This document shows positions 1-46,929 of a stretch of DNA of 64,000 bases, piece by piece; position 1 is the first letter of the stretch; every line of letters begins with the position of its first letter. The stretch is from assembly GCA_000002435.2 (NCBI GenBank), contig CM018793.1; one strand, 5' to 3'. Source of the stretch: Giardia intestinalis (lineage: Eukaryota). The position numbers and the translations under genes were made by a program. The notes below the pieces were generated by a model. It did no database searches. It was given only the letters and a program-made list of their open reading frames with translations, and had not been told where the DNA came from.

Positions 1-514
1 TTTCTGGAGCTGCACATACTACACAATTCTCGATACCTTTATACGTGTTACCGCCATTAACCTGCACTCCAGTTGTATCACTGCACGATATGCAGGAATC
101 TGTCGTGTCGGCCGCCTCTGGGCTTTTGAAGAATCCCCCAGTAGCATTACATTCTGTGCAAACGCCAGCAACAGCATTACGCCCTCCAGGTGAAGCAGCT
201 TGATCGTTGCAGATGAGGAGTGCGACATCACTGCCAAGTTGATAGCATCCACCCTTGTACATGAAGTATGTGTTCTCACATTTTCCACATGTCTTATCGT
301 CAACAAGCTCATTACCGTTAACTTTCTTGCATTTATCAGCCGCATTACCTTTTGGTGTACACTCCCCATTGATAGGAACGTTTCCATTTGTCGCGCATTC
401 TGTACAAATTTCAGTGCCGCCAACCATCTCACACTTACCTGCTGCACAATTTTGTACTTGCTTACATTGTGCCGCAAGGGCGCTCAGCCCAAGATAGAAA
501 GCTATCAGCAACAT
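1..514 (-). CDS. Cysteine-rich secreted or surface protein, VSP/HCMP-like; 3' end lies beyond the window edge
   Basis: Manual reverse-complement translation from the ATG at 514-512 gives MLLIAFYLGLSALAAQCKQVQNCAAGKCEMVGGTEICTECATNG...YKGGCYQLGSD...CISCSDTTG...CVVCAAPE. This shows an N-terminal signal peptide, repeated CXXC motifs and a GGCY motif. These are the hallmarks of Giardia variant-specific surface proteins and high-cysteine membrane proteins. The frame stays open to position 1, so it is absent from the ORF track, which lists only closed ORFs. The track ORF at 19..477 (-) is an out-of-frame artefact of this gene. Confidence 0.6.
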   Translation of the reverse strand, partial: MLLIAFYLGLSALAAQCKQVQNCAAGKCEMVGGTEICTECATNGNVPINGECTPKGNAADKCKKVNGNELVDDKTCGKCENTYFMYKGGCYQLGSDVALLICNDQAASPGGRNAVAGVCTECNATGGFFKSPEAADTTDSCISCSDTTGVQVNGGNTYKGIENCVVCAAPE

Positions 515-3500
515 TGAGATTCTTCTTAATCCACTATCAAGAATCCTACTAGCAAAGATACCCAAAGCTAAAAAGCTCCATTCGGTTATTGCTATGCTGC
601 CAGCTTAAAGAAATCCCTTTTTGATAATATTGTTGTACAAGAGATAGTTGTTAATGCCGAAAGCATCTACTAACTATAGTCTAGCACCCACCGCGGACCC
701 CTGCACAACATGCAGGGAAACAGAAAATTCAAAAATAAGTAGCAATGCTGTCCCGCGCGCATGCTGCTCCTCTACCCTGTGGCCAATCAGGGGGCGGCCC
801 GGGTGACCTCCCTGTGTTATGGGCCCACTGCTGGTTCCTCTCTTAATGTCTCTGCATTCCTGGGGAATTGGCCTCTTACGCCTTCCCTGTGCGGGTCGGG
901 CCCCTGCGGACCCCCGTGCGCAGATGATCTCTTCTCCGCCTCTATAGTATTCTCATCCCTTTGGACTATGTCTGCGACTTCTGGTTGTCATGGAGGAATC
1001 GCGCTCAAGGACAGTCCCTTGCAAGATCCCGAGAGACGGTTACAGTGGTCGCTAGGGTCCGTGGAAGTGCGAATCAGTGTAGATTAGCCTATGAGACGCT
1101 CTGGTTTGTTGGGTGTGCATGGTGCTATTTCTGGCTTTTTGTAGTGGATACTATTAAGATTCCCCATCGCATGATAAGGCGTCAGATGGTCAGAGGGCGT
1201 AGGCTAGTACTCCCAAATTTAAACAAGGAGGAAACCCTGCTCAAACTGTGCCATTTCTTGAGCTAACGGGGCAGGATTTCTATCCCCCTTCTGGATCATC
1301 CTGGTGCTATCACTACCACCACTAATGGAAGCACCTAGGAGTGCAATACCTTGAGCCTGTTAGTGTAGGGCTCTAGGTCCTCAGAGCTTCCTACATGTAG
1401 ATGCCTGTGAGGAAAGAATGGAGATCCAAGGAGGTTGTGTTGATTTGCCAGCAATTGGCCGGATGCCTGGTCCAGTACCCTCTATAGCCTCTTGTGGATA
1501 CTAGAGCAGTTGACCCCCATCTGCTGATAAGGGAATCGAATAGCATTCGTTCATGACCTTTGGTCCTAGCTGTATTTGGTCCCGAGGAGACACGCCAATC
1601 AGCCCAAGCATCCTACCTTTTGACTCACGAATCATGCCACACTGTAGGACTTGTACTGGTGCACCTTAGCATGCGTTAAATAATCCATAGAAGACCGGTA
1701 TCCTCCTGTCATATAGCTACAGGAGTCAGATAAAGCCTTACTGAGGGAACCATATCTTGCGATCCCCCGTGACCCCACTAGAGATCAAAAGAACCGATGT
1801 CTACGAGCTGATGTGAAAAATAGCAGGGTCCGACAGCATGCACCTTGAGTTGGGGATTCTATAAGCATGCACCTCTAATAAAGCTCTCAAGATCTTGTAG
1901 GAAGCTGACCTAGGTCAGTGACTGGAAGATCTTCAATGGGCAGGCGACTGCTGTGGTCTACTAGTCGCTCACCCCCTTTGTCGTGAAGGATATCTGTTAA
2001 TGTCTAGTGCTGCGGGCTGGGTGGCCCTTGTTCATCTGTGAGATTCGACTGGTGTATGTTGTAGACGAGTGACGAGATTGATATCGCCCTCTATCAGGTG
2101 GCTTTACATGAGTGGACAGACTCTGTAGTTGACCGGTTATTCCAGAAAGTCCTGCGCCTATGAGGTCACAGCCACAACCTGTATACGACAAGTAAAAGGC
2201 TCATTGGGATGAATGCTCTCTGCAGATCCCGCCGACTGTGTGGCTCATCACTGCCAAGCCTTCAAGATGGTAGCCTTGCTTGGCTGAGGCTTGCAGGTAC
2301 GAGTACAGTACAGCATCTTTCGAATCTACGGAGTCAAGCATACCTCAGACAATAAGGACAGGTGGAGACCCGAAGACAGCTAATACTAACCATGAGCTGC
2401 TCTGATCCTGTTATTCAAGAGAATAGTAGGGCCGCAGAATGGCAGGGTCCACTTTTGTGCTCTGCTCAGGGAGGCTGTGCCTTGGTGAAGGTATGCGTTA
2501 TGGCCACTATTGACTGCCCGTTGGCGGGCTATCACCTACTCTTGAGCCATTAACTAGGTTGCTGGTTGAATCAAGAAGCAACAACAGTATCATACGGACA
2601 ACGAGCAGAAAAGGCCGATGCTGATTGTATACCTCCCACGCCGAGTATACTCATTGTACAAGGCAAAGGGTCTAACGCCCTAAGTGGCCAGATGAAGCTA
2701 AGGCGCTTGTCAATAACGATATGCATACGGGCTTTAGCTGAGGGCTTGCGAGGGAATGTTGGGGAGCACAAGACTTGCCAGACTATATGAGATGCACAAT
2801 GAATGCCTACGTGGTAAACTGGTTGGCCTTTTCTTTGGTAGACAGGACCCTAGACTGTAGTGATTATTTGTATGACGTATGCCTTTGTGGGACCGATAAG
2901 AGCATTTGCATGCTAATCTGGAAAGGCCATCAGCAATGGTTGTACGAGATAGACAAGTAGAGGATAAGGGGTAGCCACGCCACTCTGGCTGATGAGCAAT
3001 CTAAACTACACAACGCGTGTGTCAATCTTTGGTCAAAGGCAGAGATGCATCTAGAATGTCACGTGGGCCGAGGACGCTGCTGATGGCTACCCGTTATGAG
3101 AAGGTGCAAGTGAGACACCTGCTAATAGCAACCACGTCGATTGGTACTGGCCTGCACAGTATATCTCTACAGTAGATCCTTGCTTGTATACGGAGAAAAG
3201 ATAAACGTCTTCGGCCTCAGACGAAACAGGTCCCAATAAATATTACACTGCTATAAGCGCATAAATCAAAAACTAGCTTCACCTGTCTGCAGACCTCGCG
3301 ATTTTTCTACACTCGAAGGCCAGAGAGACACCACAGGCGTCCCCATTGCAATCCGGATCTACAGCTTGTCTCTATAACGTCAGGCTTACCTCACTGATCT
3401 GCTAGTCGCCTTTACAGTCTTTGTGCAAACTTGCTCTCCAGGAACCACCGTGCACAAATAGCCTTTTGCGTACCTACCTAACATCTTCCTTCGTTGAAAT

Positions 3501-4669
3501 GTGGTGCCAAGGGCTAAGCATTATGAGGGGAGTGTGACCAAAAGCAAACCTCCTTGTAGTCTTGTCAGTATTAGTAGTGAGCATCCAAATGAGTGCATAG
3601 ATGCTTATCAAGTGCACTGTGATCCAGACTGCTCAGTAAGCTAGGCTCGTAGTAGGTAGTTCATGGGCCTCCGTCGCTAGCCCATGCATGAGCCGTTAGT
3701 CTCCTTGAGAGACGGTGGAGAGTTCCGTAGTCTTTCTGAATATACGGTCGTCACTATAATTGGTAGAGGAGTAGGCACAAAGACTAGAGGCTTACTTAGA
3801 GGCATCTCTAACACGACTAACTGCTATTTTCCGCTAACAACAGACAGGTTAGGCATTATGGTATTTACGCCACCTACTAGGGCGGCGCATGGCCATACAT
3901 GCATCAGCAGAGAAGCTGCTGTAATCTATGCTCAGTCTGCCGGGCAGACGCAGCTTCTCATCGCAGCAAACACGGTGACGGACAAGTCGCCAATGTAAGC
4001 CGGTCAAACTGCCCATCTCGGTACATCCATATGCAGTCGGAAGCTGTAGTACACATCTATGAAGATAACGCACCGTCTGCATGCTGTTGCCTCACTCTGT
4101 GCTAGTTATAGGGTTTAATGCCTCAGAAGTCAGGGCTAGTGTAGAATGTTCTAGAGTGTTCGTCTAGGAGACCAAGGTCGATACTGTGTGTGATGCACTC
4201 TTCAAGGAGACAGCAGCTACTGTCGTCCTTTCGGATTTTTTGGTGTCAGACAATCGGCCCCGTGGTGAGTTTACTCTTCGCAGCCTCCGTCTTCATATTG
4301 AGCCTGGCATCTGGCTGCTCAGGCTGTGGATGAAGAGGACGGTGCAGAGTATCAGTCGCTGGGCCGCCTTCTATTCGCACATTGTTCTGAGAAACAAATA
4401 GGACAGTACAGCTTCCTCTTTTGCTCTGGATGTGATGCAACCTAGCCGAGACATCTGCGCTTCTAGGGAGTGGCTGGTCAGTACCTAGAGGCATTCTGAT
4501 GGGCATGCTCACTACCGCCTGACTCTGTCCCCTCCCCGGCTACCAGGGGATGATGTCTTGAATGCATGCCCACAGAGCACTGCATAGCGATAACAAGATG
4601 GTGCTATCGCCCCTCAGGCTTCTCCAGCCTGTCTAGCAGTGTACTTCTCAGAGTCCAGTGTGGGCCTAC

Positions 4670-4689
4670 TAGTTGTATCGATACAACTA
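4670..4689. repeat. 20-bp perfect palindrome tagttgtatc|gatacaacta, centred on an ATCGAT core
   Basis: Read directly: positions 4670-4679 are the exact reverse complement of 4680-4689, and the flanking bases break the symmetry. It lies in the ORF-free stretch. Confidence 0.8.
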
Positions 4690-5282
4690 TAGATACCTTA
4701 TAGTATCACACCCGTCCAGCTCACCGTGCCCTGTCCCATCTAGAGAGCAGCCCAGCCGTGCACAGGAGCCCTTAGCTCCTATCCAGGACCTGGTCCAATG
4801 CTCAGCTGGTTCGGATTCCCTGCTACATCTTGCTGAAAGCCATGCTGAAGCCATCGACCCGGCGATTGCTCTAGGTTTACAACCCCCACACTCAGCCACC
4901 ATACACCCTTCTCCATGACAGGGAGGTTCGCTAGAGGAAGATGCTAGAGCTCTCTTGTTCCTGTCTCCTGGCCCTCCTGCTCATTCTATTGGATGCTCTC
5001 TAGACTCTTTTCTTCGAGTCCCCGCAGGCCTTCCTCAGCGGCTCACTCGTGGGAGCAGCCGCGGGTTTGTTGTCTACTGGGGACGCAGAGGGCTAGGCGT
5101 TGGACCACCGACTTCCCCATTTGGGCTTCTTCTCCCGCTGAAGTGGACGACGTTTGACTTGCGAAGTCTGGATTTGGATTTCGGTTAGTGAGTAAGCAAG
5201 AGACCTGCCCAGGGCGGCGCTGGCTCGCATGGGAGATTTTCTTGGACAGCAGCTGGCAAACCGGTTTTAGTGACGAAAGTAA

Positions 5283-5720
5283 ACCATCATTCGTGATGCT
5301 GAACAATGCGTGAAGAACGGGGCTGCCTGCAACTGGACGCCCAAGGCGAGGGGCGGAACGTGTGTGCAGAACGCCACGGGCGCATGGACGTGTCAGTGCA
5401 ACCCGGGCTACGTTGGAAGGCATTACGACCTCTGCGACAAGGGCATGACGGCTGTCGATGGGACCTGTACGCCTCACAATCTGGTGAAACTATACGCTAG
5501 CAAGAAGTGCCTGAACACCCGTCTGGCCGCCAGCGTGTGCACAGGGCACGGGGAGTGCTACAAGGACGCCTGTGTCTGCGCCGAGGGCTACCACGGGGAT
5601 CTGTGTGACTGCCGTGTGAGGAACATCGGGGCCGTGGCGGGGGTGACGGCGAGCACGGCCGTCTTCTTCGGGCTCCTCTTCCTGTCTGTGGCCAGGTGTC
5701 ATAGGACGCCCGCCCGGTAG
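5283..5720 (+). pseudogene. Start-less EGF-like/HCMP-like C-terminal fragment: EGF modules, a transmembrane helix and a short tail
   Basis: The open frame runs from the stop at 5280-5282 to the stop at 5718-5720 and reads ...CVKNGAACNWTPKARGGTCVQNATGAWTCQCNPGYVGRHYDLCDKG...CTGHGECYKDACVCAEGYHGDLCDC, followed by the hydrophobic stretch AVAGVTASTAVFFGLLFLSVA and then RCHRTPAR. There is no in-frame ATG; the track start is a GTG. The fragment begins where GC content rises sharply. Confidence 0.45.
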
Positions 5721-5773
5721 GGTGTACAAGTCCCGCACACGGCTAACCTACCCGCAGCCCAAAAAAGGACCGG

Positions 5774-7687
5774 ATGTTGCTGCTTACCTTGTCTTTCCTC
5801 TGCGCGGCATCGGCCGAGCGGGACCCGTTCAGCATCCATATGGCGTGCGAGCATGCCTTCGAGCGCTTCGTCGGCCTCTACGGGAAGGCCTACGACACGC
5901 CCGGGGACCGGCTGGAGGCGGAGCGGAACTTCTGCATGCACCTCGAGCACCTCCGGAGGCTCCGCCGGGAGGGCCACGAGCACGTCACCTTCGGGATCAC
6001 GTCCCGGATGGACCGCCACCCGCGCGCCGGCCTCCTCCCGCCCCGGTCGCTGGGGGGCGGCGAGTGGGGCGCAGTCACGGGCACATGCACACGAGATGAT
6101 AAATCGAATAAGTACACCAACTGCAACGTCGATGCATACGAGCTGGGGCCGGACCTGAAGGGAGACACTCAAGCTAATTCACAGAGTGCCAACGCTGACG
6201 ATAAGAGCAAGAAGCAGGACAGCTTCTTCCTCGTCGACGTGCGGGACATGAACGTCAACGGCAGGCAGCGGACGCTCCCCCACTCCGTCGACCTCCGCGA
6301 GGTGGGCCTCGTGACCCGCGCGAAGGACCAGGGCCTGTGCGGCTCCTGCTACGAGTTCACGACCATCGAGGTCCTCGAGAACCTGATGCTCGTCGACGCA
6401 GACCTCTACACGAGGGGGAAGTACCTCGATCCTAAGCCCTTTCCGTCGAACTACTTCTGCAACTGCTCGGCCCCTGCGAGTCAGGACGGGGACCAGAAGA
6501 GTAATGACTGCACCACAGGACTGATAACTGTTACAAATCGCACCGAACAGGACTATACCGACATCCCCGAGAACTGGAAGTCCTACAGCGCGTCCACCCT
6601 GCGCCTCTCCGTCCAGTTCCTCCTCGACAACCTCATCGGCGGGAACTACTGCAACGGGGGGAACTACTTCCGCGCCATCGCAGACTTCGTCAACAAGCTG
6701 AGCAAGCTCGCGAAGGAGTCCGAGTGCATCTACAGGGAGTACGCGACGCCCGAGAAGGCCGCCCCAGACGATGGTACTAAGTGTCAGGACACCAACATAG
6801 GAGACTTCAACCCTGCCTTCGTCTCCATGCCGATGAAGAAGAAGGGCAGCTCTTCTAATTCTGGCGCTGCAGCTACCGACGAATATGAGTATGATGTCAA
6901 TGGTGGCTCAGGCACCCCCAAGAAGTTCGGCGTCTACCAGATCCTGCGGAACGAGGGCGTGCCGGCCTCGGGGCCCATAGTCGGGGAGATGGACAAGGGG
7001 AAGTTCGCCGAGTGGGAGCGGAACGTCATGAACGTCCTGGCCCGCGGGGTCGGGGTCGCGGCGGCCATGCACACAGAGTCCGGCGTCGACACGTCGATCG
7101 ACAAGGACTACGAGTCCGTCGTCGCCTCTGCGCTGACGTTCAACCTCTACAAAGGCGGCGTCTTCCCCGACGTCAAGTGCGTGCGCGCGACCACGAACCA
7201 CCAGGTCATGCTCGTCGGCTACGGGGCGTACAAGGGCCGGCCCGTCTGGATCCTGCGCAACTCGTGGGGGACCGGCTGGGGCGTCTCGGGCTACTACTAC
7301 ATCGGCCGCGGCTCCAACTCGCTCTGCCACGAGCTGACCGTCGAGTACACGATGCCCCGCTTCTACGGGCCCGACCGCGACGGCGTCCACCCGCTCTTCC
7401 TCTCCGCGCCCGACGAGGCCCAGAAGGTCGCCATCGCAGACGCCGTCCGCGCCTCCCCGTTCAACAGCAAGATCAAGCGGTGCGTGAACGGGCTGGACAC
7501 GGTCGACGCGCACGGGGGCACGATGTGCGAGGCCCTCGAGGTCAGCGCGTGGAACTACGTCCTGGTGGGGGCCCTGGCCATCGTCATCTTCTTCCTCGGC
7601 CGGTACTGCATGCAGTACTACTTCTGCGCGCCGGAGTACATCTTCCACAGCCCCCTCAACCTGAACCTTCCGCACAAGGGCGTGTAG
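5774..7687 (+). CDS. Papain-family (C1A) cathepsin L-like cysteine protease precursor with signal peptide, I29-like propeptide, long low-complexity insert and C-terminal transmembrane anchor
   Basis: The signal peptide is MLLLTLSFLCAASA. The propeptide segment is ERFVGLYGKAYDTPGDRLEAERNF. The catalytic-Cys motif is KDQGLCGSCYEF, with Y in place of the usual W. The His motif is NHQVMLVGYG and the Asn/Trp motif is NSWGTGWG. The C-terminal hydrophobic helix is WNYVLVGALAIVIFFLGRYCM. The gene is GC3-saturated. Confidence 0.8.
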   Translation: MLLLTLSFLCAASAERDPFSIHMACEHAFERFVGLYGKAYDTPGDRLEAERNFCMHLEHLRRLRREGHEHVTFGITSRMDRHPRAGLLPPRSLGGGEWGAVTGTCTRDDKSNKYTNCNVDAYELGPDLKGDTQANSQSANADDKSKKQDSFFLVDVRDMNVNGRQRTLPHSVDLREVGLVTRAKDQGLCGSCYEFTTIEVLENLMLVDADLYTRGKYLDPKPFPSNYFCNCSAPASQDGDQKSNDCTTGLITVTNRTEQDYTDIPENWKSYSASTLRLSVQFLLDNLIGGNYCNGGNYFRAIADFVNKLSKLAKESECIYREYATPEKAAPDDGTKCQDTNIGDFNPAFVSMPMKKKGSSSNSGAAATDEYEYDVNGGSGTPKKFGVYQILRNEGVPASGPIVGEMDKGKFAEWERNVMNVLARGVGVAAAMHTESGVDTSIDKDYESVVASALTFNLYKGGVFPDVKCVRATTNHQVMLVGYGAYKGRPVWILRNSWGTGWGVSGYYYIGRGSNSLCHELTVEYTMPRFYGPDRDGVHPLFLSAPDEAQKVAIADAVRASPFNSKIKRCVNGLDTVDAHGGTMCEALEVSAWNYVLVGALAIVIFFLGRYCMQYYFCAPEYIFHSPLNLNLPHKGV

Positions 7688-7690
7688 CGC

Positions 7691-8917
7691 CTAGCGCCCG
7701 AACTCCCCGTCGTAGAGGGTGGTCAGGTAGATGTCCATGTTCTCGCTGAACCTCCGTGAGATCTCCAGTACATCGCTGTCCCCGATGGAGAAGTCGGACA
7801 GCCGCGGCCCCTCTGTGCTCCGGTAGTCGCAGAGGCTCTCCTCGTCTATGGAGACGACCCGGCTTGGATCGAAATTGACCAGCGTGTCGAACTTGTACTC
7901 GACCTCGCTCCGCTGCACTGAGATGGCGACCCCGCTGTTCAGGCCGCGCGCGCACCTTCCCACGCGGTGGGTGAGGGTGGCCAGCGACTCTGGGAGCTCG
8001 AAGTTGACCACCGAGCGAACCGCAGGAAGGTCGAGCCCACGGGCGAAGTTATCAGTTGCCAGGACGATCGTTGCAGGGTGTTCCTCGAGGGACTCGTTGG
8101 AGATGGCCGGGACAGACTCGAAGTTCGGCCTCCGGAAGACGTGCCCCTGGGCCACCAGCGTTATCCTGTACCGAAGCTCCTTGTAAACCTTGATCATCAT
8201 CAGGAACAGCAGGTGGGCGATGCGCTGCGCGGTGTGCCTGGAGTTGACGAAGACGATGCAGGGCAGGAGGGTGGTCCTCGAGTTGGTGATGGACCCGGCG
8301 GGGCTGCAGAGGAACCTGAAGACCAGGTATACGATGTCTATCTTGGAGTAGGTCCGCTTGAGCTGGACGACGAAGTGTTCGACGTTGGGCGAGAGGGCAA
8401 GGCGCGCGTGGCCCTCGTCGAAGTCCACCATGCACCCGCCGTGGAGGCCCATGTTCTCGAGCAGACTTGCCCGGTACTTCATGGTCGCAGAGAGGAAGAC
8501 AAACCTGTCCGTCGGGAGCCCAAGGCGGTGTCGCTGGGCGAAGAAGAGAGGCACGCGGAAGACGGCCGTGGAGTTCCGTTGAGCGAAGAACTCCCTGATG
8601 AGCGCCAGGAAGGACGTGTTGTCGTTGAGGAGGATGTGGTCTGCCTCGTCTATCACCACGTGCCGCAGCTTCAGGAACGAGGTTGCTCCGCGGGAGGCGA
8701 TTCCTGTGCCCGAGGCCGGCTTGACTGCCGTAAGGAGAGCAGAGACGATCCAGGGGGTGCCGCAGATGATGTACGATGTCTTGTCCTCTCCATACTCAAT
8801 GATATTTCTGAAGTCGGGAAGTTCAGAGTGTCTGAGCAGAGGCACACAGCGAACGAGACCAAGGAGCAGATGATAGACTGGCTGGAAGAACAGTGTCGCC
8901 TTGTGGATAAATGGCAA
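7691..8917 (-). pseudogene. DEAD-box RNA helicase lacking the N-terminal Q, I and Ia motifs; truncated copy or pseudogene
   Basis: The motifs appear in canonical order: Ib (IICGTPWIV), II (VVIDEADHILL), III (FLSATMK), V (ARGLDLPAVRSVVNFELP) and VI (HRVGRCARG). The track start is a TTG, immediately preceded by an in-frame TGA at 8918-8920. No GSGKT or Q-motif was found in any frame of 8918-9275 by manual translation. Its stop lies 3 nt from the cathepsin stop, in convergent orientation. Confidence 0.55.
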
Positions 8918-9275
8918 TCACAGACACCGACTATCTGCCAATACTATCTCGTCCGACACCAGCTAGACACATATGAATATAACACGCCCTTCTGGTCAGT
9001 AACAGATACTATGGAGTATCCGAAGGTCTCACTTATCAACGAGCCTTCAGATTATTTTTCGGCAGGCGATTATCTTTCTCGATTCCCTGAGGACACGGTT
9101 CAGCTGGTCGACAACAGCTAGGTAAGCTTTTTATCTTAAGAGTAGACTCAAGTGCATCGGAAGCTATAATGTTATGCAGCAAGCATTACACGTAGCTCAG
9201 CGAGGACACAGCGCTGAAAAACCGATTACTGAAGGTGACAGAGGGCAAAGTAAATCTTCGACAAAATACAATTCA

Positions 9276-11054
9276 CTAAAGTGTTTTTACATTACAGTGC
9301 TTTCCAAAGTATCCAACAGAACAAACACAGTTATATCCATTGCACTTTCCATGACCACTGCACACCTCGTTAGTAGCTGAGTTGGTAATACACGACTCGT
9401 TAACGCACTCGCCATCAATGACCTTAGCATCTGAGCGACAAGAGCATTTGTAGCTGCCATCATCTTCTACGCAACGGCCATATCCTCCGCAAACAGACGT
9501 CGTCTGCGCCACATCATCGTAACTCGTCACACATTCTTCGTGGACACACAAGTTATTGACAAATGTTTGGCCAGTAGGACACTGGTACCACTCACAAAGA
9601 GCCCCGCTATATCCTTCGTTACACTTACAGACGCCATCAGTGCAAGTTCCACGATTGCTGCAGATTATAAGTGAAGCAGTCACGCAGCTATTTGGAACAC
9701 AGATCCCCCCTGGAACGGTTTCATAACCGGAATCACAACTGCACATGTAACACACGTCGAACACATCTCTTCCAGAATATGCAATACAGGTACCTTTGCC
9801 AGAGCAGACCGATAGAGCATCAGGGTTGCGTTCATCAATGCACGACCATGGCTGGCAAACCCCATCTATCAGTGTCGCCTCCGACGAGCATTCTTCGCAA
9901 GTAGGACCTGAGTTTGTTGGGTTACAGCTACACACACCGGTGTCAAAGTCGCATGATCCCGCACTGTGACATAGCTGAGGCGGATTCGTCTGACTATTGG
10001 TGACACACGAGGACGGGTAGCAGACAGAATTCCGACCAATGTAGTCAGTGGGACAAATACACCGGGGAGGGTTCATTGAAGCATCATATGTGCCATGAGG
10101 ACACACAATGCCATTCACGATGCAAGAGGCATAGATGCAGGTGTTTTCGTAGAAGACGAAACCGTCATTACATGCGCAAGCCGCTCCATCATTGTTCCAA
10201 ATACAGCGGCCGTGGCCACCACATACACTCTCGTCGGAAATGCAGGCCTCCGGATAGCATGTCTCTTGAGCAGACACGAACCCTGGTTCGCAATCGACGA
10301 CCTTGTACTCGCAAGTGGGCCCATTGTATCCGCTATCGCAAACACAGCGAGTGCCAGCACAGATACCTCTATCAGAGCAGACCTCCGTTATGCCATACAA
10401 GTTATACTCAGTAATGCAGCCATTATAAATGCAAGTGTTATTGTAGAAGGTACCATCATATGGGTAGCACGAGCAAACATAGTGAATGTTCGGGAAGGGC
10501 ATAATCATGCAGCGGCCCAATCCATTGCAGACCAGTGTCTCTCCAGGGACAAATTCCGTCAGGCAAGACTTGTGAACACACGCTCCATCAATAAGAACAG
10601 CCTCAGATGAGCACTCTGTGCACTTTTCGCCCGCGTTCGCAGGATAGCAGCGACAGTATGGCGCGCTCCCATCGGTTGGCTGAATGCACGTCCCGTAGCC
10701 AAAGCAGACGCCTTCCTCAGTGTAGCAAGCTTCTGGAACACAGACCTGGTAGTCGTTAATGTAGCCCTGGTCACAGCTACACTCATAGCTTCCGTGTTCC
10801 GACTCCACACATTTTCCATGGCCATTGCAAACATCATCAGACGCAAGGTAGCAGATCGACGGGTAGCATCCCTGATTTCCAAGACTGTAGCCAGAGTCGC
10901 ACCTACAGACCGAGGCTGTGCAAGTTCCATGATTGTTGCACACTGTGTCTTCAAAAACACAGCTGGATGGATAGCAAGCTCCATCAACTTCAACCTCTCC
11001 GTCTGGGCAATGGATTGCGGTGCAGAGAGCCACTAGCGTCAAGACGAAGATCAT
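9276..11054 (-). CDS. Secreted tenascin-like EGF-repeat protein with about 15 or more EGF-like modules and no transmembrane segment
   Basis: Repeated units of the form CxCxxGYxGxxC occur throughout, for example CRCDSGYSLGNQGC, CSCDQGYINDYQVC and CVCDSGYNGPTCE. The signal peptide is MIFVLTLVALCTAIHC. The start is re-set to the ATG at 11054-11052, preceded by the AT-rich tract aacttaaaaacttg. The longer track ORF begins at a TTG at 11138. Confidence 0.7.
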   Translation of the reverse strand: MIFVLTLVALCTAIHCPDGEVEVDGACYPSSCVFEDTVCNNHGTCTASVCRCDSGYSLGNQGCYPSICYLASDDVCNGHGKCVESEHGSYECSCDQGYINDYQVCVPEACYTEEGVCFGYGTCIQPTDGSAPYCRCYPANAGEKCTECSSEAVLIDGACVHKSCLTEFVPGETLVCNGLGRCMIMPFPNIHYVCSCYPYDGTFYNNTCIYNGCITEYNLYGITEVCSDRGICAGTRCVCDSGYNGPTCEYKVVDCEPGFVSAQETCYPEACISDESVCGGHGRCIWNNDGAACACNDGFVFYENTCIYASCIVNGIVCPHGTYDASMNPPRCICPTDYIGRNSVCYPSSCVTNSQTNPPQLCHSAGSCDFDTGVCSCNPTNSGPTCEECSSEATLIDGVCQPWSCIDERNPDALSVCSGKGTCIAYSGRDVFDVCYMCSCDSGYETVPGGICVPNSCVTASLIICSNRGTCTDGVCKCNEGYSGALCEWYQCPTGQTFVNNLCVHEECVTSYDDVAQTTSVCGGYGRCVEDDGSYKCSCRSDAKVIDGECVNESCITNSATNEVCSGHGKCNGYNCVCSVGYFGKHCNVKTL

Positions 11055-11137
11055 CCAAGTTTTTAAGTTAGTTGAAATTATTTCTCCATTGTGGAAAGTT
11101 TGCAATAACGAAATTGCAAATTTGCTTCCTACAAACA
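11055..11137. promoter_or_regulatory. 83-bp divergent intergenic spacer between the tenascin-like gene and the HECT ligase gene; candidate bidirectional AT-rich initiator region
   Basis: Both flanking ATGs are preceded by A/T-rich tracts, caagtttttaag on one side and aaattgcaaatttgcttcctacaaacaATG on the other. There is no room for a long 5' UTR. Confidence 0.4.
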
Positions 11138-14100
11138 ATGGAAGGAGAATACGACTCTGACGTCACACCATATGACTCGCCGCAACCAGAATCTATAAAA
11201 GACTTCCTCCTCAACTTTAACCCATCACGTTTCAGATTCGCCATGCCTCTACGTCGGCAAGATCTGGATCCACCGCTATTAGTCGCAGAGACATGCAACG
11301 TGGAATTGGCTTGTGGCCGGGAGGCCATCTTATCCATCAGCCGCTTTAAGACCAGACAGCACCGTTTAAGGTATACTTTAGCGCGGTTGCGAGAGCGTAC
11401 CTCATGCCCTTCTGCAGTTTGCAATTGTCCCTGTGATAACAGCATTTTTGTCAGTGCTTCTGATCATGTTTGTGACACCATGGAAGCACCTACCATTGTT
11501 CCCTTATCTCTCACTTCTGATGCACAAATAAACCCCCAGTCGTCTCGGCCATCATCTGCTGGTTCAGCTGAGGCACAGACATTCCTTCACAATTGCCTTA
11601 ATAATTTCGCCGATCCGGCTGCTCTGAAGCAATGCACACAAATGCTACGAGAGAATAATAACTTGCTGCCATCAGAGCTGGTTACGACATCTTTTGTTGG
11701 GAACGTCAGAGATTGCCTTGTAGAACTTGGTGCCATGTTGTCCACTAATTACTCTGTATCAAATGTCTTAACTATAGCCCAGAAACAGTTCCTTACAGAG
11801 CTTCTCCGACGCACGAATAAGTTTTTTCTTAGCAACTCTCGCAGATATGAATCTGCACTAAGCTTCGTCTGTGCACTCTGGCCGCTCTGGGTGTACCTTT
11901 CTCAAGTTTTTGATAAAGCAATCTGCGACGTGGTTTCTACTAACCTTAACACTATAACAAAGTTCTACAGCATCAATGTTTCAAAGCGAGTTGGAGAGTA
12001 TATCCAGGCAATGCAAAAGTTGGATTCTACACAGCAAGGATCGGAAAAAAGCATAGATGACCCTGGAGAGCCAGTCGGTAAGTCTGACGACTCCAAGGCG
12101 GTGGCTAAGCTGTCTGTTGACAATATCATTTCAAGCCTACCATCGCACTCCTTGCTTCGCCGCTTCTGTGATGCAGGATTTAAAAACCCTTTTCTTCAAG
12201 CTGCTAGCTGCAAACTTACTTGCCAGCTGTTCACTATATGTAATGACCTGGTCTCTTTTCATCCGGATTTACGCATGCTCATTCACGGGGGTGTTACTTT
12301 TGAGTCCCTTCAAAGTCTCCCCCTCTCAGTTGAGAGCGTGAAGATCGCTAGATATACCTCCTCCAAGGTTTTCTTGCTGCAGGCGCAGCGTGTGTATCGC
12401 AAGTATGGCGATGAGATAGCTGCTGATGCGGACCTGGATGACCTCACACTTCTTCTTCATGACTACTATTTCCATGTGATACACAGCATGACAGAGGACG
12501 GGGTGGAAGAGCCAAGGGATGCGCCCTGTGACGTGAACCATTCTGGCTATATGCAACACTCTTCACTGAACAATGTATCCAAAAGCGACGAGCCAGAGGA
12601 GACGCTCACAGATATGTTTTACAAGCGTGGAAAAGAGGTAGATAGAGCGGTTCTCAGCGCTATTAACCTCCTTAAAGAACGGGCCAGGGAAGATGCTGTT
12701 TCTCCTACATTTACTGGTGATGATGGGTCTTCGGATGAGGATGACGCTGCTGTTGCAACAGAATTGGCCCGCCTGATGGCCTCTCCACCATCAGACTCTG
12801 ATTCCGATGTAGCTGAATCGACTACTACTGCAACTACTGCCATAGACTCCAGTGAAGAAGAGAGCGGTCATGCTGCTGACCCCACTGATGAATTAGGCGT
12901 CGCGCTTCCTAGTAGCCTGTGCACGGCTGTAAACGTACCTAGCAACGCGACAGTAGCCACAGCAGAGCCTGTCATTGAAGGACCTGTCACTCAACTTGAC
13001 GATACTCCAAATGATCAAGAGCCGACACCTCAGCTGCCTGAGGGCAAACTCAATGAACAGGCTGATGAAGAGTCCAGAAAAGACGTTATGCAAAGTGATG
13101 TTTATGATATCAGACAGATGCGAGCGATCAGCGAGGACTACGTCTCTAATTGGCTGAGTCACAACTTCCTCGAAGACGAAATGGCCATGTCTTTAGAGAC
13201 TCAAATGCGGCATATGTGTATGTTCATTTCCTCTGTTTCCCTCGTTGTCTCAGAAGCCGACTCTGAGGCAATCAACACGGAACCTCAGCAGGGACAATCA
13301 TTCTCGGAACAAGAAGAATATTTGCTTAGCCAAGCAATTGAGAAGCTGGCTACGCGGTTTGTAGAAACTGTATCTCTGGATGGACCTCTCAATAGTGTGA
13401 GCATAGCACTTATTCACGAGTTTCTCTGCATTTTCCTGTACTGCACGAGCCTTGGATTTGTTGGAGAGTTCGAGTGCATCAATTTTGACACCTTTCTGCA
13501 AATACTTCAGCACGTAGACTTGTATTCTGAGACTATCCGTTCTGTGAACAGATATATAAAGTCTATGAGTCTGCTCCAGAACGAGGACATCCGAGAGTCT
13601 CTTGTTTCTTACGATAAGAAGATATTTGACTTTCTTCTCAAGAAGTTCAGTATCGTCGATGATGCGTATTACCTCAACGCAGAAAATCCTGCACTAGTTC
13701 GCGACACTAGATTGACAAACTTGCAGTCTAGGATCCAAAACGTTGATGCCTTGAGTGCGACAGTTCGTGATCTCCAGAGGCTGATCGAGAAGCAGTGCAA
13801 TATGACCACTTGTGAGTTCATTAGTTCTTGCTTGATAGAGCATCAGTGCCTGAATTGCATCATTATGGACCTTATTATCCGATCACAAAAGGACTTCTCA
13901 GCGTTCCTCGTTGCCAATCCTGACCAGCTTCTCCAGCTTTTACATGTCTGCAAGGATAATTTACTGAACGATGTGCCTGCTAAAGAACTGGCAACAGAGA
14001 ACATCGACGTAACTCTCAGAAACAGGCTTTCATACTTCCTGCTAATGCTTTTCATTCTTTCACTGCTGGATACAGATACGATTGTTCACTCCATGCAGCT

Positions 14101-17100
14101 CCTACTGAGTCCTGTAGCTAACCCAGAAGAGACATGTGCAGATGGAACCACGGCTGAAGATAGTACTGCAGGAATGGAAAAGCAACACATAACTTCAGAC
14201 CCTACTCGTGCTATGAGTACGTTTACGATTGACAACGTTGTTACCTTGATCTGTGCATACTTACAATCCATATGTAAGTACTCGCAACAATACTCCACCG
14301 ATCGGAGCATTACATATACACTCAATACAATCAACAAGCCGGCTCGGGGCAGTGGGAAGGCGATCAAAATTCCCTTTGAACTGTTCAGAAACAAGGTTGA
14401 TGGAAGCATATACTTTGTGGAGGGAACAAGCGTGGCAAAGCTTTTGACTGTTATTACGGAGCCCTGCTATGCTGGGCTATTTGAGAAGTCGTATGCTCTC
14501 ATACCAAAATTGAAGGTTCGGTCAGATGCCGGTGGAATCGCTAGGCGTCTACTAACGACTGGGCACCTACCACTGGTGGGCATGCGTACTTTGAATACTG
14601 ATCTCTACGATCGTATCAAGCTAATGACGGGAAGGGAGCGGAGTGAGGATCTGCGTTATGTGGATAAGGCCATTCCACGGATACTTCTTGCATCTCTCTT
14701 TTTGGATCGCGTCGCTAGAGCACGCATACCCATATCTGCGTCCCCATTAGAGTCGCTGTTGATGACCCTTGAATATCTTGTCCACAAAAAGCTAATTACG
14801 CACTTGGCTGACCCACCAGATGGAGACTCCGTTTTGGCACAAAGCCTTTTCTGCTTCCCCGCAGGAATTAAGCCAAAGGTGTCTTCATTTATTGTGTCGT
14901 TGTTCACGCTTTCAAAGCATCCCATCAGCATGACGCTTTCTTATGCCCTATTCCACTGGCTAGAACTGCCAGCTACTGAGCTAGCTTTGTTTTACAATAC
15001 TCTGGAAAAATTGCCCAATTTTGGTTTTATCAATTTGCCCACAGAAAGGATTGCGGCAGCTTTAGCGGCCAAAGATGACCCTGAATCGTTGGATATAGTT
15101 GATCCCCATAGTGCTGAGCAAGCACCTGCCTCTCTTTTAGCGCAGCAGGGATTGCCAGGGACACTTGCTGCCACCCAAGTTCAGGCAGAAGCATCGTCTT
15201 GCAGCCTTGCTTCCTTCGCCTCTACAGACCTTTTGGACCAATCACTTATACATTCCCCTGTTGATAAGCTATTGTCATCCATGGGAACGCAAAGTACGTG
15301 TGCCTTTCAGTATCAATCACAAGCTATACTAGAAGAGTATACCTCCTTGGCGCAACTTTTTTACAGGAGCTTCACGCACGTGATAGTAATATTGCTGTTT
15401 GCGTTAGGGAACTGGAGATGTTATCCTCTCGGCCAGTTCTTGTACCTACCTGCTGAGCGGATATCCCAATTGCAAGGCAAGACCTTTTCTATTCCTGATA
15501 GATTGACCATGCTGAATTCACTATCTATCATCTTAGGGGAGATAGAAGCCATAGTGGCGTTTATACCGTTCATTCAGCAAACACTTCCTGTAGTGACGCT
15601 CCTCAGTGGTTGCCTGGCACACATTGACGAGGCCATCTTCTTAGGCAATGAACCCATCATACGAACGCTACTCCGTATTCTATTACCAGGAGAATTATAC
15701 TTCTCGCTGATGCGACCTCCGTCGGCGCAGACAGGGCAGATGCACTCTCTCACTTCCTCGTTGGCAACCAAGCCCTTGTCGGCAGGCGGGTCCATACTTC
15801 CGGCCCGTCCGCTATCCTCATCGTTAACCACTAAGCCAGGATACTTTATGACTGGATCAATTAATCAATCGCGTGGAGGACTATCTGTATCTCTTAAAAC
15901 CAAGCAGATGGTTCTTGCATGTCTACGGACTACCCTCGCGAACGCAATTCAAATGTGTGCATTATCTACTCTACCCCAGACCTATCCCTTCTATAATATC
16001 TATACAAACGAGCTGCTTCAGCTCTCTCAACTAGAAATATGCTCTATTTACCTAATAGGATGGTTGAGGCTCACTCAAAACTTGACACTATGCTATGATG
16101 GTGCCCTCGTTGCTCAGCTTGTCACAATTCTCTCCTACTTTCCGCAATTGAGGTACGGTATTCAGCGAGACACCCCTGAAGAGCCGTCCGAATTAGAACA
16201 CGCCGCATCTTTTAATGCGTTCGGTTCGGTGACCTCTAACGCGACTCCACTGATGCATACCAATTCCCCGGCTTTGCGCCCCTCATCAAGAGCGTCCACA
16301 GCTTCCAAGGCAACCTTGAGAGGGATATCAGCGGGAGCATCTAGCCTGAACTTTAGGAGTATTCCTGGTCTCTTTTCTCCTAACTTTAATGTGGTCAGCA
16401 CTCCCTTTATTGCGCTGCTTTTTCCTGCCTTTACGTTTGATGGGGCTGTGAGTAACTTCGTCGGCTGGATGATATACCATTTTCTTCTAGGTTACGTTAA
16501 ATCTGGCGGTTTAGAGGGGATGCTGCATCAAATACATATATCAGAGGAGTCTGTACCTTTAGCTGGTGTGTCTGTACACGCTGACTTAGATTCAGGACCA
16601 GAAAAGTATATCGAGTCATTAACCAGCTACTTCTCCACGCAAATGGAGCTTGTTTCAGCATGCAAGAATATATGTTCGCTTGTCTCTGCTCTCACATCTG
16701 TGCTTCAGTACGACATGCTCCACCTTTCTGATTCTTCAATGCAGCTCGGACACAAGCTATCTGCACATGTCCTTCAGGGCATGCTCATGGCTCTGCCCGG
16801 AACTGTGTGCAACACAGGTGAGTCTATGTTTGATGACCCCAACTCTACCAGTCGAATGGCAAAGATACTGATTCCTCTCTCAGCACCTTTGGGAGCATTT
16901 TCAACAGCCGGTTGCTTCGCCATAGATTTACCAAGCACGCAGGTTATCAAAACGGATGCAGAAGAAACAGATACTGCAAAAGAGCAAACAGAGGAAACTA
17001 AAGAAGAGACAGAAAAACAGACACTTGGTACCAAGATGATAGATGTATACGTTCCAGCGCCAAAGGTGGCTGGAAGCTTATCAGAGACGCATTTTTCGTA

Positions 17101-44989: not shown

Positions 44990-45673
44990 TTGTCAATTAT
45001 TTTTTTAAGTTTGGGCACATTCCTTGACGAATAATTAAACACCGAGATTTTCAAATGGATTTATACCAGCGCGACTTTTCTGTTGCTTAGTGGAGACACT
45101 TGCTCTTGAACGACCGCACCCGGTAACCACATACATGAAGCGTACTATCTGATGCTGCAGAGATTGGAGGCCATTATACGCCAATACACTTTTGCCCATT
45201 TTGTCGGATGGAGGCCTTTTCTCTCTATTATGTTTGTCGGCACTTACAACACGGAATACTACTATTGTGCCCATCTAGACCTACCTAAATATACTTAAAT
45301 CAGCTTAATTTACAAGCAATAAATTGTGAATAGAAATACACTAACATTAGCCTGGGCAAGCAAGACCGCCTCTGAAGCAGTTTCTCATGAGCCAGTTTGT
45401 CCCGCCAACGGAGTTTGACCCGACTATTTACATATATAAATACAAATAAGGATTAGAGGCACTAAGACACTAGGGTCACTATTATTGAAGAGCATAACAA
45501 TTGTATCAGCGGATGTAGTGTGACAATGTGGACACTTGAAGATAGCAGTATTCTTACAACTCTCAGGCACGCGACGAACACATTTATGCCTGCAGGTAAT
45601 AACATGACAACCCACTGACTAGACAAATATGCAATGCAATCTTAAGTAGTCTTCTCCAGAGAAGCAAAATAAT

Positions 45674-45964
45674 TCATCGGAATCTATAGTACTTCGTCAC
45701 ACTCACAGAATGGATAAGGTCTGTCCAGCTAGAGACACCATTCTCATGCTTCATCAGAAGCTTCACCGTCTCGTCCCTTCCGTTCTGGGCGGTGATGATG
45801 AGGGTGGTCAGACCCTGCCTGTCCTTCTTACCCTTTTCATCGAGGTGTTGAGACACCATGTCCGTGTCTTCGAGTGATGCGGTGTACATAGGCATTGTCC
45901 AGCCAGCGGCGTCCTTCTTGTGTGTCATGAGAAGCTTTGCAACATTGTGATGGCCGGCTCGCAA
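45674..45964 (-). pseudogene. Ankyrin-repeat gene remnant of about 96 codons with no proper start
   Basis: The translation GHHNVAKLLMTHKKDAAGWTMPMYTASLEDTDMVSQHL...GLTTLIITAQNGRDETVKLLMKHE shows two to three ankyrin-like repeats. The ORF begins at a TTG directly after a stop. It lies in a 1.9-kb gene-poor gap. Confidence 0.35.
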
Positions 45965-46929
45965 CCTCTAGTCCCTTCTCGTGCTAGGCAAGGGTTTGAC
46001 TGCTTCTAGGCCTCTACTCTGCGCCACTGTCACCAGAACAACAGAGTCAATATCAGTCAGAGCGTTATGGACTTAACGGCCTCTGCATGGATAAAAGGGA
46101 GGAAGGATGCCATCAATGTTGCTGTTTCCTGAACCGTAAAAATAGGTAAGAGCAGAAGTGATCTGCTTAGTGGTACAAAAGACGTCATTAGCAGGCATAG
46201 TCTCTCCTTGACTCTCTCCCCAGTGCAGATGCAGAGGTGAAGTAACACTTTGCGTAGCAAGGTAAAGAGTAGAACCCTTTCTAAGCATTCGCTGCACCTA
46301 GATACTCCCAGGATATGAGAGCGCACCAAGCATCCCAAATGGCACTGAGAGAACTAGGGGGTAAGTTCTCCAACTGGACCTTCAGAAGCACGTTAGTGAG
46401 GCTACCCTTTAAGGCGTAAGCAACCTAGTCAGGTTCCTTGTCAATAAGCCCATCGATATCCTGCAACGTCTTGTCAAAGCGGACATGGAGACCAGAAATG
46501 ACAGGCGGATTTTTAGTCCGGTCGCTAAAAAGTTGTTGAATCGATTAAAGCGCCGGCTTCTCATACGGGCTATAGGGCTACCATAATTGGCCAGCCTGTT
46601 GCGTAGTCACAAATAAATACGCGTCATGCTAGCATGTCTTTTCATTTTTGCTGAGAATGTGTCAACGCACTTGATTGCCACCTTCCTTTTCTTCTGTTTT
46701 GGGAAGCGATCATTCCACCGTTGCGGTAGGCGGCCAGCCGGCCGGCTTCTGTCCACCAGTACAGACCTGATTTAAAAACTGTTATTGAAGACTGCCATTG
46801 CAGACTACAAGTAGGATTGCTTCTTAATTATTTAAATACGATATCTGCAGTTTCCAACTTACGAACTTTCTTCCCTTGCAGAGCTAACAAACTTTAAATC
46901 TGATAGTATCAGGACTTTTTTTAAATAAA

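What the first reader, a model, noticed from the sequence alone, without database searches (positions are those of the whole stretch)
515..5282. A 4.7-kb stretch with no credible ORF in an otherwise extremely compact locus
Elsewhere in the window, genes are separated by about 5-700 bp. Here nearly 5 kb carries only short overlapping ORFs of at most 157 codons, on both strands and in all frames, with no recognisable motif. The candidate explanations are a decayed gene, for example the lost 5' part of the HCMP-like fragment or a dead retroelement, a non-coding RNA locus, or spacer tied to antigen-gene silencing or recombination.
Basis: seen in the sequence. Interest (0 to 1): 0.5.

Follow-up and report, generated by a model that had tools for sequence, protein, structure and literature searches.

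The report
Non-coding spacer upstream of Giardia VSP gene
The 4.7-kb gene-free stretch is real, but it is the long, partly duplicated non-coding flank that typically lies upstream of Giardia surface-antigen (VSP) genes, a pattern already described, and not a decayed gene or an RNA gene.

Summary
The window is Giardia intestinalis WB. Positions 515-5282 have no coding signal. The longest open frame is 114 codons, as in shuffled sequence. There is no codon bias, no 3-base periodicity, no Pfam domain in any frame and no Rfam family. The stretch lies between the start of a VSP gene (ATG at 514, minus strand, canonical CAATGTT initiator) and a truncated HCMP tail (5283-5720). That tail opens a multi-copy block of HCMP tail, cysteine protease and helicase fragment. 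Similarity to the full-length HCMP of isolates P15 and DH stops abruptly at 5301-5304, so the missing 5' part did not decay here. Isolate DH has the same VSP, spacer and HCMP-tail layout at about 92% identity, also without ORFs. DH carries an extra 3.1-kb reverse-transcriptase relic at the site matching 4903/4904, which is empty in WB. Positions 2027-5239 recur at 100% identity next to a kinase gene in many WB-type assemblies. Much of that segment also lies upstream of a different VSP in a third strain. The small ORFs are broken in DH or evolve neutrally, and the one stable hairpin is not conserved. Published work already reports long, gene-poor, duplicated VSP flanks. Verdict: real but ordinary, and any regulatory role is untested.

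The parts
1..514 (-). 5' part of a VSP gene that runs off the window start. The ATG is at 514-512, followed by a signal peptide and CXXC motifs.
   Evidence: Translation begins MLLIAFYLGLSALAAQC.... Pfam PF03302 VSP scores E=1.3e-7 for this fragment, 31.3 bits against a cut-off of 31.4. The DH homologue in L006 is a 436-aa VSP.
508..517 (-). VSP initiator element PyAATGTT around the start codon. The minus strand reads TCAATGTTGC.
   Evidence: Read directly from the sequence. The motif is described in PMC2996952 and in bioRxiv 10.1101/2022.03.07.483299.
515..5282 (.). The ORF-free, non-coding stretch: 4768 bp, 50.1% GC, CpG observed/expected 0.57.
515..2026 (.). VSP-proximal part of the spacer. 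In the data at hand it is found only next to this VSP, in WB and DH.
   Evidence: It aligns to DH L006 at about 89-97%, except for the patch at 790-990. It is not part of the duplicated module. In L018 the corresponding part is unrelated.
790..990 (.). Hypervariable patch: about 27% divergence from DH, almost all transitions, no indels, with sharp edges.
   Evidence: There is no support for a conserved RNA structure.
2027..5239 (.). A 3.2-kb non-coding module present as a second, 100% identical copy elsewhere in WB-type genomes, where a protein-kinase gene follows it.
   Evidence: Logan contigs L008-L014 match 2027-5239 at 100% (L010 99.97%) and then continue into an AT-rich promoter and a Pkinase ORF. 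The 104-aa ORF at 3684-3998 has two identical entries in the WB proteome. Positions 2400-4903 are 99.5-100% identical upstream of a different VSP in SRR21529620.
4200..4420 (.). Long imperfect hairpin, the most stable local fold in the stretch. It is not conserved.
   Evidence: The WB fold has z=-3.4. The DH version folds at -55 and -59 kcal/mol on the two strands. That is weaker than random mutants carrying the same number of changes (-64 and -67).
4900..4903 (.). CATA at the empty site where DH carries a retroelement (RT) relic of about 3.1 kb. A contig from a third strain also ends here.
5283..5720 (+). Truncated HCMP tail: about the last 140 codons, with EGF-like repeats and a transmembrane end, and no start codon or signal peptide.
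   Evidence: Blastx matches P15 HCMP residues 1199-1374 at 64% identity. Pfam finds EGF_2 and EGF. An in-frame stop lies at 5280-5282.
5304..9140 (.). GC-rich multi-copy block: HCMP tail, cysteine protease (5774-7687, plus strand) and Helicase_C fragment (7691-8917, minus strand). Its left edge is the right border of the ORF-free stretch.
   Evidence: It is 87-97% identical to blocks in P15 L001 and in DH L002, L005, L006 and L007, each with different flanks. WB has four protease paralogues.

Best explanation
The stretch is the extended non-coding 5' flank of a variant-specific surface protein (VSP) gene of Giardia intestinalis WB. It lies head-to-head with a truncated HCMP relic. It has two parts. 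The first is a VSP-proximal segment (515-2026). The second is a 3.2-kb non-coding module (2027-5239) that is duplicated at 100% identity elsewhere in the genome, next to a kinase gene. Much of that module also sits upstream of a different VSP in another assemblage-A strain. The right border of the stretch is a rearrangement junction, at the edge of a multi-copy block of HCMP tail, protease and helicase fragment whose flanks differ between strains. The following steps are shown: the stretch has no coding capacity; it is present in independent assemblies; part of it is duplicated; it has a homologue in DH; it shows no detectable sequence or structure constraint; and it contains no recognisable transposon protein relic. 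The following steps are inferred. The stretch was probably built and is maintained by segmental duplication, ectopic recombination or gene conversion in the variable VSP/HCMP/NEK regions. It probably acts mainly as passive spacer and recombination substrate. At most it sets the chromatin context of the VSP promoter. It probably does not encode a product.
For: Organism and locus: the protease at 5774-7687 is 100% identical to the WB protein XP_001706883.1. There is no coding signal, no Pfam domain at E<=1 (positive control) and no Rfam family. A VSP with the Inr motif sits at 514. HCMP similarity ends at 5301-5304. DH L006 has the same layout: VSP, then 7.7 kb of gene-poor DNA, then HCMP tail and protease. 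Window 1-4903 aligns to it at 91.5% and 4935-5513 at 90.5%, and the DH stretch is also ORF-free, with a maximum of 129 codons. The identical second copy of 2027-5239 is shown. The window's own junction into the HCMP tail is confirmed by L022. The module lies upstream of another VSP in L018. Constraint is absent. Of 16 small ORFs, 9 are broken in DH. Seven of the eight ORFs that align to DH without gaps stay open there, and the eight pooled show 130 nonsynonymous against 47 synonymous codon changes. Non-coding divergence is 7.8%, against 1.2-2.0% in neighbouring single-copy genes. Literature: regions around VSPs are gene-poor (PMC7000408). VSP intergenic regions have a median of 1280 nt and a mean of 2131 nt, against 79 and 392 nt genome-wide, and head-to-head VSP/CRMP pairs share upstream sequences (bioRxiv 10.1101/2022.03.07.483299). 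An 'extended noncoding region upstream' is described as typical of vsp genes (PMC2996952).
Against: No expression, small-RNA or chromatin data could be examined, so a regulatory or RNA-producing role is not excluded. The complete WB genome could not be searched, so copy number and all contexts of the module are unknown. The 7.8% divergence from DH may reflect paralogy rather than neutral orthologous drift, which weakens the 'no constraint' argument. Several perfectly conserved runs of 103-118 bp exceed the 95th percentile (92 bp) of a uniform null. At 4.8 kb the spacer is in the upper tail even for VSP flanks.
Confidence: 0.8

Rival explanations
1. The stretch is a very old transposable-element relic, or a non-autonomous mobile element, degraded beyond recognition. 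The 2027-5239 module spread by transposition rather than by segmental duplication.
For: The module occurs in at least three contexts: HCMP tail, kinase gene, and another VSP. The preprint reports CENSOR hits to BEL, Gypsy and Mariner relics in VSP upstream regions. A retroelement relic sits inside the DH homologue.
Against: No RT, integrase or transposase domain appears in any frame at E<=1, although the same scan finds the DH relic. There are no terminal inverted or long direct repeats at 2027 or 5239, or anywhere in 1-9500. Copy boundaries differ between contexts: 2027 in WB copy B and about 2400 in L018. There is no poly(A) tail or target-site duplication at the module ends.
Confidence: 0.12
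2. The stretch is a non-coding RNA locus, either a long ncRNA or a hairpin small-RNA precursor such as 4200-4420, that regulates VSP expression.
For: The hairpin at 4200-4420 folds better than all 200 shuffles, with z=-3.4. RNAi and miRNA mechanisms have been proposed for VSP control (background in PMC7066823).
Against: No Rfam family passes threshold; the best hit is snoZ168 at E=3.7. The DH version of the hairpin is less stable than random mutants. The hypervariable patch shows no excess covariation. No segment is complementary to the VSP genes at hand.
Confidence: 0.06
3. The stretch is a decayed protein-coding gene, either the lost 5' part of the HCMP or another pseudogene, or the frames are broken by sequencing error.
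For: The adjacent HCMP is truncated and lacks about 1200 codons that are present in P15 and in DH L005. The old WB annotation placed small hypothetical ORFs here, GL50803_115734 and GL50803_117618.
Against: There is no similarity to HCMP upstream of 5301 by blastn or blastx, although the tail is 80-87% identical at DNA level. There is no codon bias or periodicity. There are no tblastx hits within the window. The annotated small ORFs are broken or neutral in DH. The sequence is 100% reproduced in independent Illumina assemblies.
Confidence: 0.02

Closest known systems
Extended non-coding, gene-poor flanks of Giardia vsp genes (Adam et al. 2010, PMC2996952; Xu et al. 2020, PMC7000408; bioRxiv 10.1101/2022.03.07.483299)
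   Same: The stretch lies directly 5' of a VSP that carries the PyAATGTT initiator. It spans kilobases without ORFs. It is head-to-head with a cysteine-rich membrane protein gene relic. It shares sequence with other VSP upstream regions, is partly duplicated in the genome, and has slightly raised GC (50.1%).
   Different: At 4.8 kb it is longer than the reported VSP mean of 2.1 kb. The partner gene is only a truncated HCMP tail at the edge of a multi-copy protease block. No TE-protein relic is detectable in the WB copy.
GilD, GilM and GilT non-LTR retrotransposons of Giardia (Arkhipova and Morrison 2001, from my own knowledge; GilM is mentioned in PMC7000408)
   Same: A dead RT-bearing element of about 3.1 kb is inserted in the DH homologue of this stretch, at the site matching window 4903/4904. 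Retroelement remnants between head-to-head VSP pairs are reported in the literature.
   Different: The WB stretch has no RT or endonuclease similarity in any frame. It is the empty site.
Conserved upstream (ups) flanks of Plasmodium var genes (from my own knowledge; an analogy, not homology)
   Same: Long non-coding 5' flanks shared among members of an antigen gene family, located in recombination-prone regions.
   Different: No sequence relationship exists. No evidence here links the flank type to expression control.

Membership tests
VSP-associated gene-poor or extended upstream non-coding region | Lies immediately 5' of a VSP gene with the PyAATGTT initiator | tested here: met
   The ATG is at 514 (minus strand) within TCAATGTTGC. 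VSP Pfam match and signal peptide.
VSP-associated gene-poor or extended upstream non-coding region | More than 1 kb with no credible ORF or coding signal | tested here: met
   The same holds in the homologous DH and SRR21529620 loci.
VSP-associated gene-poor or extended upstream non-coding region | Sequence shared with other VSP, CRMP or duplicated flanks in the genome | tested here: met
   An identical second copy of 2027-5239. Positions 2400-4903 lie upstream of a different VSP in L018. The whole WB genome was not searchable.
VSP-associated gene-poor or extended upstream non-coding region | Transcriptionally silent, or carrying special chromatin | not testable with these tools
   No RNA-seq or ChIP data were available.
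Non-LTR retrotransposon relic (GilD, GilM, GilT) | Reverse-transcriptase or endonuclease similarity in some frame | tested here: not met
   Six-frame Pfam scan finds nothing at E<=1. Positive control: the DH insert gives RVT_1 at E=2.7e-6.
Non-LTR retrotransposon relic (GilD, GilM, GilT) | DNA similarity to Gil consensus sequences | not testable with these tools
The window shows no similarity to the DH RT-relic insert.
HCMP (high cysteine membrane protein) pseudogene | Residual DNA or protein similarity to HCMP, or EGF/CXXC-rich frames | tested here: not met
   Blastn and blastx against the 1374-aa P15 HCMP give nothing upstream of 5292-5304. No EGF or VSP Pfam hits.
Known structured RNA families (Rfam 15) | Covariance-model match at gathering score | tested here: not met
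   No hits in the whole window. The best sub-threshold hit has E=3.7. No tRNA.
Real small protein genes (old annotation GL50803_117618 and GL50803_115734) | ORF kept open and under purifying selection in a related strain | tested here: not met
   The 104-aa and 108-aa ORFs are broken in DH. Pooled over the eight ORFs that align to DH without gaps, nonsynonymous to synonymous codon changes are 130 to 47. The 50-aa ORF shows 5 to 2.

The most novel reading that the evidence does not exclude
The 3.2-kb module (2027-5239) could be a dedicated non-coding element of antigen-gene regions. It is kept identical between copies within WB and nearly identical in a strain whose single-copy genes differ by 1.4%. 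It might act as a recombination or gene-conversion hub, or as an epigenetic boundary or small-RNA source (for example the 4200-4420 hairpin). In that role it would help control which VSP is expressed, or how VSP loci are reshuffled.
Probability: 0.08. Interest if true: 0.6.

Novelty: already known. Interest (0 to 1): 0.17.

Why it matters
The result removes a false lead. The gap is not a missed gene, a pseudogene or an RNA gene. It also gives a well-dissected example of a VSP flank. The example includes a duplicated non-coding module, an empty retroelement insertion site, and a multi-copy block whose flanks differ between WB, DH and P15. If such flanks prove to influence VSP switching or recombination, this locus has defined breakpoints (2026/2027, 4903/4904, 5239/5240 and about 5301) that would make experiments straightforward. 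As it stands, it confirms a published genome-wide pattern.

Tried and rejected
1. Decayed HCMP: rejected by blastn and blastx against the full P15 HCMP.
2. Dead retroelement: rejected for WB by the six-frame Pfam scan, with a positive control in DH.
3. Internal or tandem repeats: none of note.
4. Rfam and tRNA: nothing.
5. RIP-like or deaminase hypermutation. This was suggested by a transition/transversion ratio of 8.4 and low CpG. It was rejected because the four transition directions are balanced with no context bias. Single-copy genes show an equally high or higher ratio, 12 to 36.
6. Conserved RNA structure in the transition-rich patch 790-990. The fold z-scores are +0.7 and -0.3. Covariation is not beyond a position-shuffled null. 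The count of structure pairs result is biased, because the structure was derived from the same two sequences.
7. Hairpin 4200-4420 as a conserved element: rejected.
8. The concatenated-ORF search of the 5.8-billion-protein database returned nothing. This was a false negative, because exact look-ups later found two of the ORFs in that collection. It is not used as evidence.
9. Look-ups of WB proteins in the look-up of encoding contigs failed, because WB is not indexed.
11. A 24-mer scan of JGI metagenomes found nothing.
12. A literature search for the two old gene IDs found nothing.
Full report
**Identity of the window.** The ORF at 5774-7687 encodes a papain-family cysteine protease. It is 100% identical to the Giardia intestinalis WB C6 protein XP_001706883.1 / KAE8305602.1, which is recorded on a 4.02-Mb chromosome. 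The window is therefore Giardia WB (assemblage A1).

- In 515-5282 the longest stop-free run in any frame is 114 codons. Markov-1 shuffles of the same stretch give a mean maximum of 130 codons.
- Stop density is 4.3-5.4% per frame, essentially the random expectation.
- The region without any open frame of at least 180 codons is 605-5746. It is the largest in the window; the next two are 1.9 kb and 1.16 kb.
- A codon-usage log-odds score trained on the window's long genes is -0.10 in the stretch. That equals a shuffled copy; genes score +0.07 to +0.14.
- The 3-base periodicity signal is 0.3, against about 25 in genes.
- There are no tandem or dispersed internal repeats, and no tblastx similarity to the rest of the window.
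- CpG observed/expected is low, 0.50-0.57 at the left end against a window median of 0.72, but not far outside the window's range.

**Flanks.**
- Left flank. A VSP gene on the minus strand starts at 514 and runs off the window. Its translation begins MLLIAFYLGLSALAAQC and is rich in CXXC motifs. It matches Pfam VSP. Its start codon sits in TCAATGTTGC, the PyAATGTT initiator described for vsp genes.
- Right flank. An in-frame stop at 5280-5282 precedes an open frame at 5283-5720. This frame is the last 140 or so codons of an HCMP, with EGF-like repeats and a transmembrane end, and without a start codon or signal peptide.

**The stretch is not a decayed HCMP.**
- In P15 (L001) and in DH (L005) a full 1374-aa HCMP lies directly upstream of a paralogous or orthologous protease.
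- Blastn and blastx of the window against that HCMP match only from 5301-5304 onward, at 80-87% DNA identity. Nothing matches upstream.
- The border at about 5301 is therefore a rearrangement junction and not a gradual decay.
- Positions 5304-9140 form a GC-rich block of HCMP tail, protease and Helicase_C fragment. The block occurs in several copies: four protease paralogues in WB and four loci in DH.
- Its flanks differ from copy to copy and from strain to strain.
- The window combines a left side like DH L006 with a right side like DH L005, which carries the tenascin-like and HECT genes at 98-99% identity.

**The stretch is not a recognisable retroelement.** Six-frame translations of 500-5320, with stops written as X, give no Pfam family at E<=1. 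The method works: applied to the 3.1-kb DH-specific insert described below, it finds RVT_1 at E=2.7e-6.

**The stretch is not a known RNA.** No Rfam family reaches gathering score anywhere in the window. The best sub-threshold hit in the stretch has E=3.7. There is no tRNA.

**A homologue in DH (assemblage A2).**
- L006 carries a VSP (minus strand), then 7.7 kb of gene-poor DNA, then an HCMP tail and a protease.
- Window 1-4903 aligns to L006 1086-5937 at 91.5%, and window 4935-5513 aligns to L006 9032-9629 at 90.5%.
- Between these two segments DH has about 3.1 kb that WB lacks. The extra DNA is bounded by CATA on both sides and carries the RT relic. WB 4900-4903 is the empty site.
- The DH homologue is also ORF-free, with a maximum of 129 codons.

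**Evolution of the stretch.**
- Non-coding divergence between WB and DH is 7.8% (339 mismatches, 303 of them transitions). The HECT gene differs by 1.2%, the tenascin-like gene by 2.0%, and HECT third codon positions by 1.9%.
- The strong transition bias is genome-wide, with a ratio of 12-36 in those genes. The four transition directions are balanced, so there is no sign of directional hypermutation.
- Mismatches are patchy, with an index of dispersion of 3.0. One 200-bp patch (790-990) is 27% divergent without indels.
- This pattern fits a mosaic produced by gene conversion among diverged copies, or non-orthology of the DH copy.
- Of 16 small ORFs, 9 are broken in DH, including the two longest. 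The eight that align to DH without gaps (seven still open there) show 130 nonsynonymous against 47 synonymous codon changes, close to the neutral ratio.

**Structure tests.**
- The hypervariable patch has fold z-scores of +0.7 and -0.3. It has no more compensatory pairs than position-shuffled controls.
- The most stable local fold is a roughly 220-nt hairpin at 4200-4420, with z=-3.4. It is degraded in DH more than random mutation would predict.

**Part of the stretch is duplicated.**
- Exact look-ups show that the ORF at 3684-3998 is the old-annotation hypothetical protein GL50803_117618. It has two identical entries in the WB proteome. The ORF at 654-806 is GL50803_115734.
- Contigs from many independent sequencing runs (L008-L014) match window 2027-5239 at 100% (L010 99.97%). 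They then continue into an AT-rich promoter and a protein-kinase gene.
- Other contigs (L022, L023 and 15 or more similar places) match 2024-5336 at 100%. These confirm the window's own junction into the HCMP tail.
- In SRR21529620, single-copy genes are 98.6% identical to the window. There, contig L018 matches window 2400-4903 at 99.5-100%. It then continues through 1.9 kb of unrelated ORF-free DNA to a different VSP. The contig ends exactly at the 4903 site.
- The stretch therefore contains a non-coding module shared among different variable-region contexts.

**Literature.**
- Xu et al. 2020 state that regions around VSPs tend to be gene-poor and show more allelic variation (PMC7000408).
- Adam et al. 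2010 describe an extended non-coding upstream region and the Inr as typical of vsp genes. They also describe 2-4 kb of non-coding DNA between inverted vsp pairs (PMC2996952).
- The preprint 10.1101/2022.03.07.483299 gives VSP intergenic lengths with a median of 1280 nt and a mean of 2131 nt, against 79 and 392 nt genome-wide.
- The finding is an instance of this known pattern.

**Caveats.**
- The full WB genome, RNA-seq and chromatin data were not available.
-, a protein search with concatenated ORFs that returned no hits, was shown to be a false negative. It is not used as evidence.
- A regulatory or small-RNA role is not excluded, but nothing here supports it.

**Verdict.** The stretch is a real but ordinary VSP-flanking spacer of an already described kind. 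Interest is low.

Noticed in passing
window 5304-9140; L001, L002, L005, L006, L007: The block of HCMP tail, cysteine protease and helicase fragment is multi-copy, and its flanks differ in every copy. In P15 it joins tRNA-synthetase and full HCMP to Ank and UTP20. In DH L005 it joins tRNA-synthetase and full HCMP to tenascin and HECT. In DH L006 it joins VSP and spacer to a full DEAD helicase. In WB it joins VSP and spacer to tenascin and HECT. It looks like a hotspot of ectopic recombination with concerted evolution among copies.
   Followed up: partly
window 790-990 against L006 about 1875-2075: A 200-bp patch with about 27% divergence between WB and DH. Almost all changes are transitions, in all four directions, with no indels. 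The flanks are 95-100% identical. The cause is unknown; a gene-conversion tract from a diverged copy is the guess.
   Followed up: partly
window 515-17732 against DH L005 and L006: The transition/transversion ratio between WB (A1) and DH (A2) is very high everywhere: 8.4 in the spacer, 12 in HECT, and 36 to 0 in the tenascin-like gene.
   Followed up: partly
L006 5938-9015, site matching window 4903/4904; L018 position 1: DH carries a dead RT-bearing element of about 3.1 kb (RVT_1 E=2.7e-6) flanked by CATA. WB has the empty site. A contig from a third strain (SRR21529620) ends at exactly the same position, which suggests a repeat is inserted there too.
   Followed up: partly
window 7691-8917 (minus strand): The Helicase_C ORF (408 aa) lacks the DEAD/ResIII half that is present in the 561-aa DH L006 copy. 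It is probably a truncated paralogue at the right edge of the duplicated block.
   Followed up: no
window 44993-46887: The second-largest ORF-free gap (1.9 kb, 45% GC). It lies between a Ser/Pro-rich 576-aa ORF (minus strand) and a 2367-aa Sec7-domain gene (plus strand). No VSP is nearby. The coding score is weak and periodicity is 2.3.
   Followed up: no
window 654-806 and 3684-3998: These small ORFs were annotated as hypothetical proteins GL50803_115734 and GL50803_117618 in the old WB annotation. In DH the 104-aa ORF is broken by a frameshift, and the 50-aa ORF stays open but changes 5 nonsynonymous to 2 synonymous, so they are very probably spurious.
   Followed up: yes
A homologous-protein query made of 25 concatenated ORF translations returned no hits, although two of the ORFs are exact representatives in that collection. 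Long concatenated queries can miss short exact matches.
   Followed up: yes
L002 120-953: The DH contig end upstream of another block copy holds GC-rich tandem repeats, seen as a 277-aa repetitive open frame. This probably caused the assembly break.
   Followed up: no
window 1-3000: This region has the lowest CpG observed/expected in the window: 0.50-0.56 against a median of 0.72. The adjacent GC-rich block is about 1.05.
   Followed up: partly
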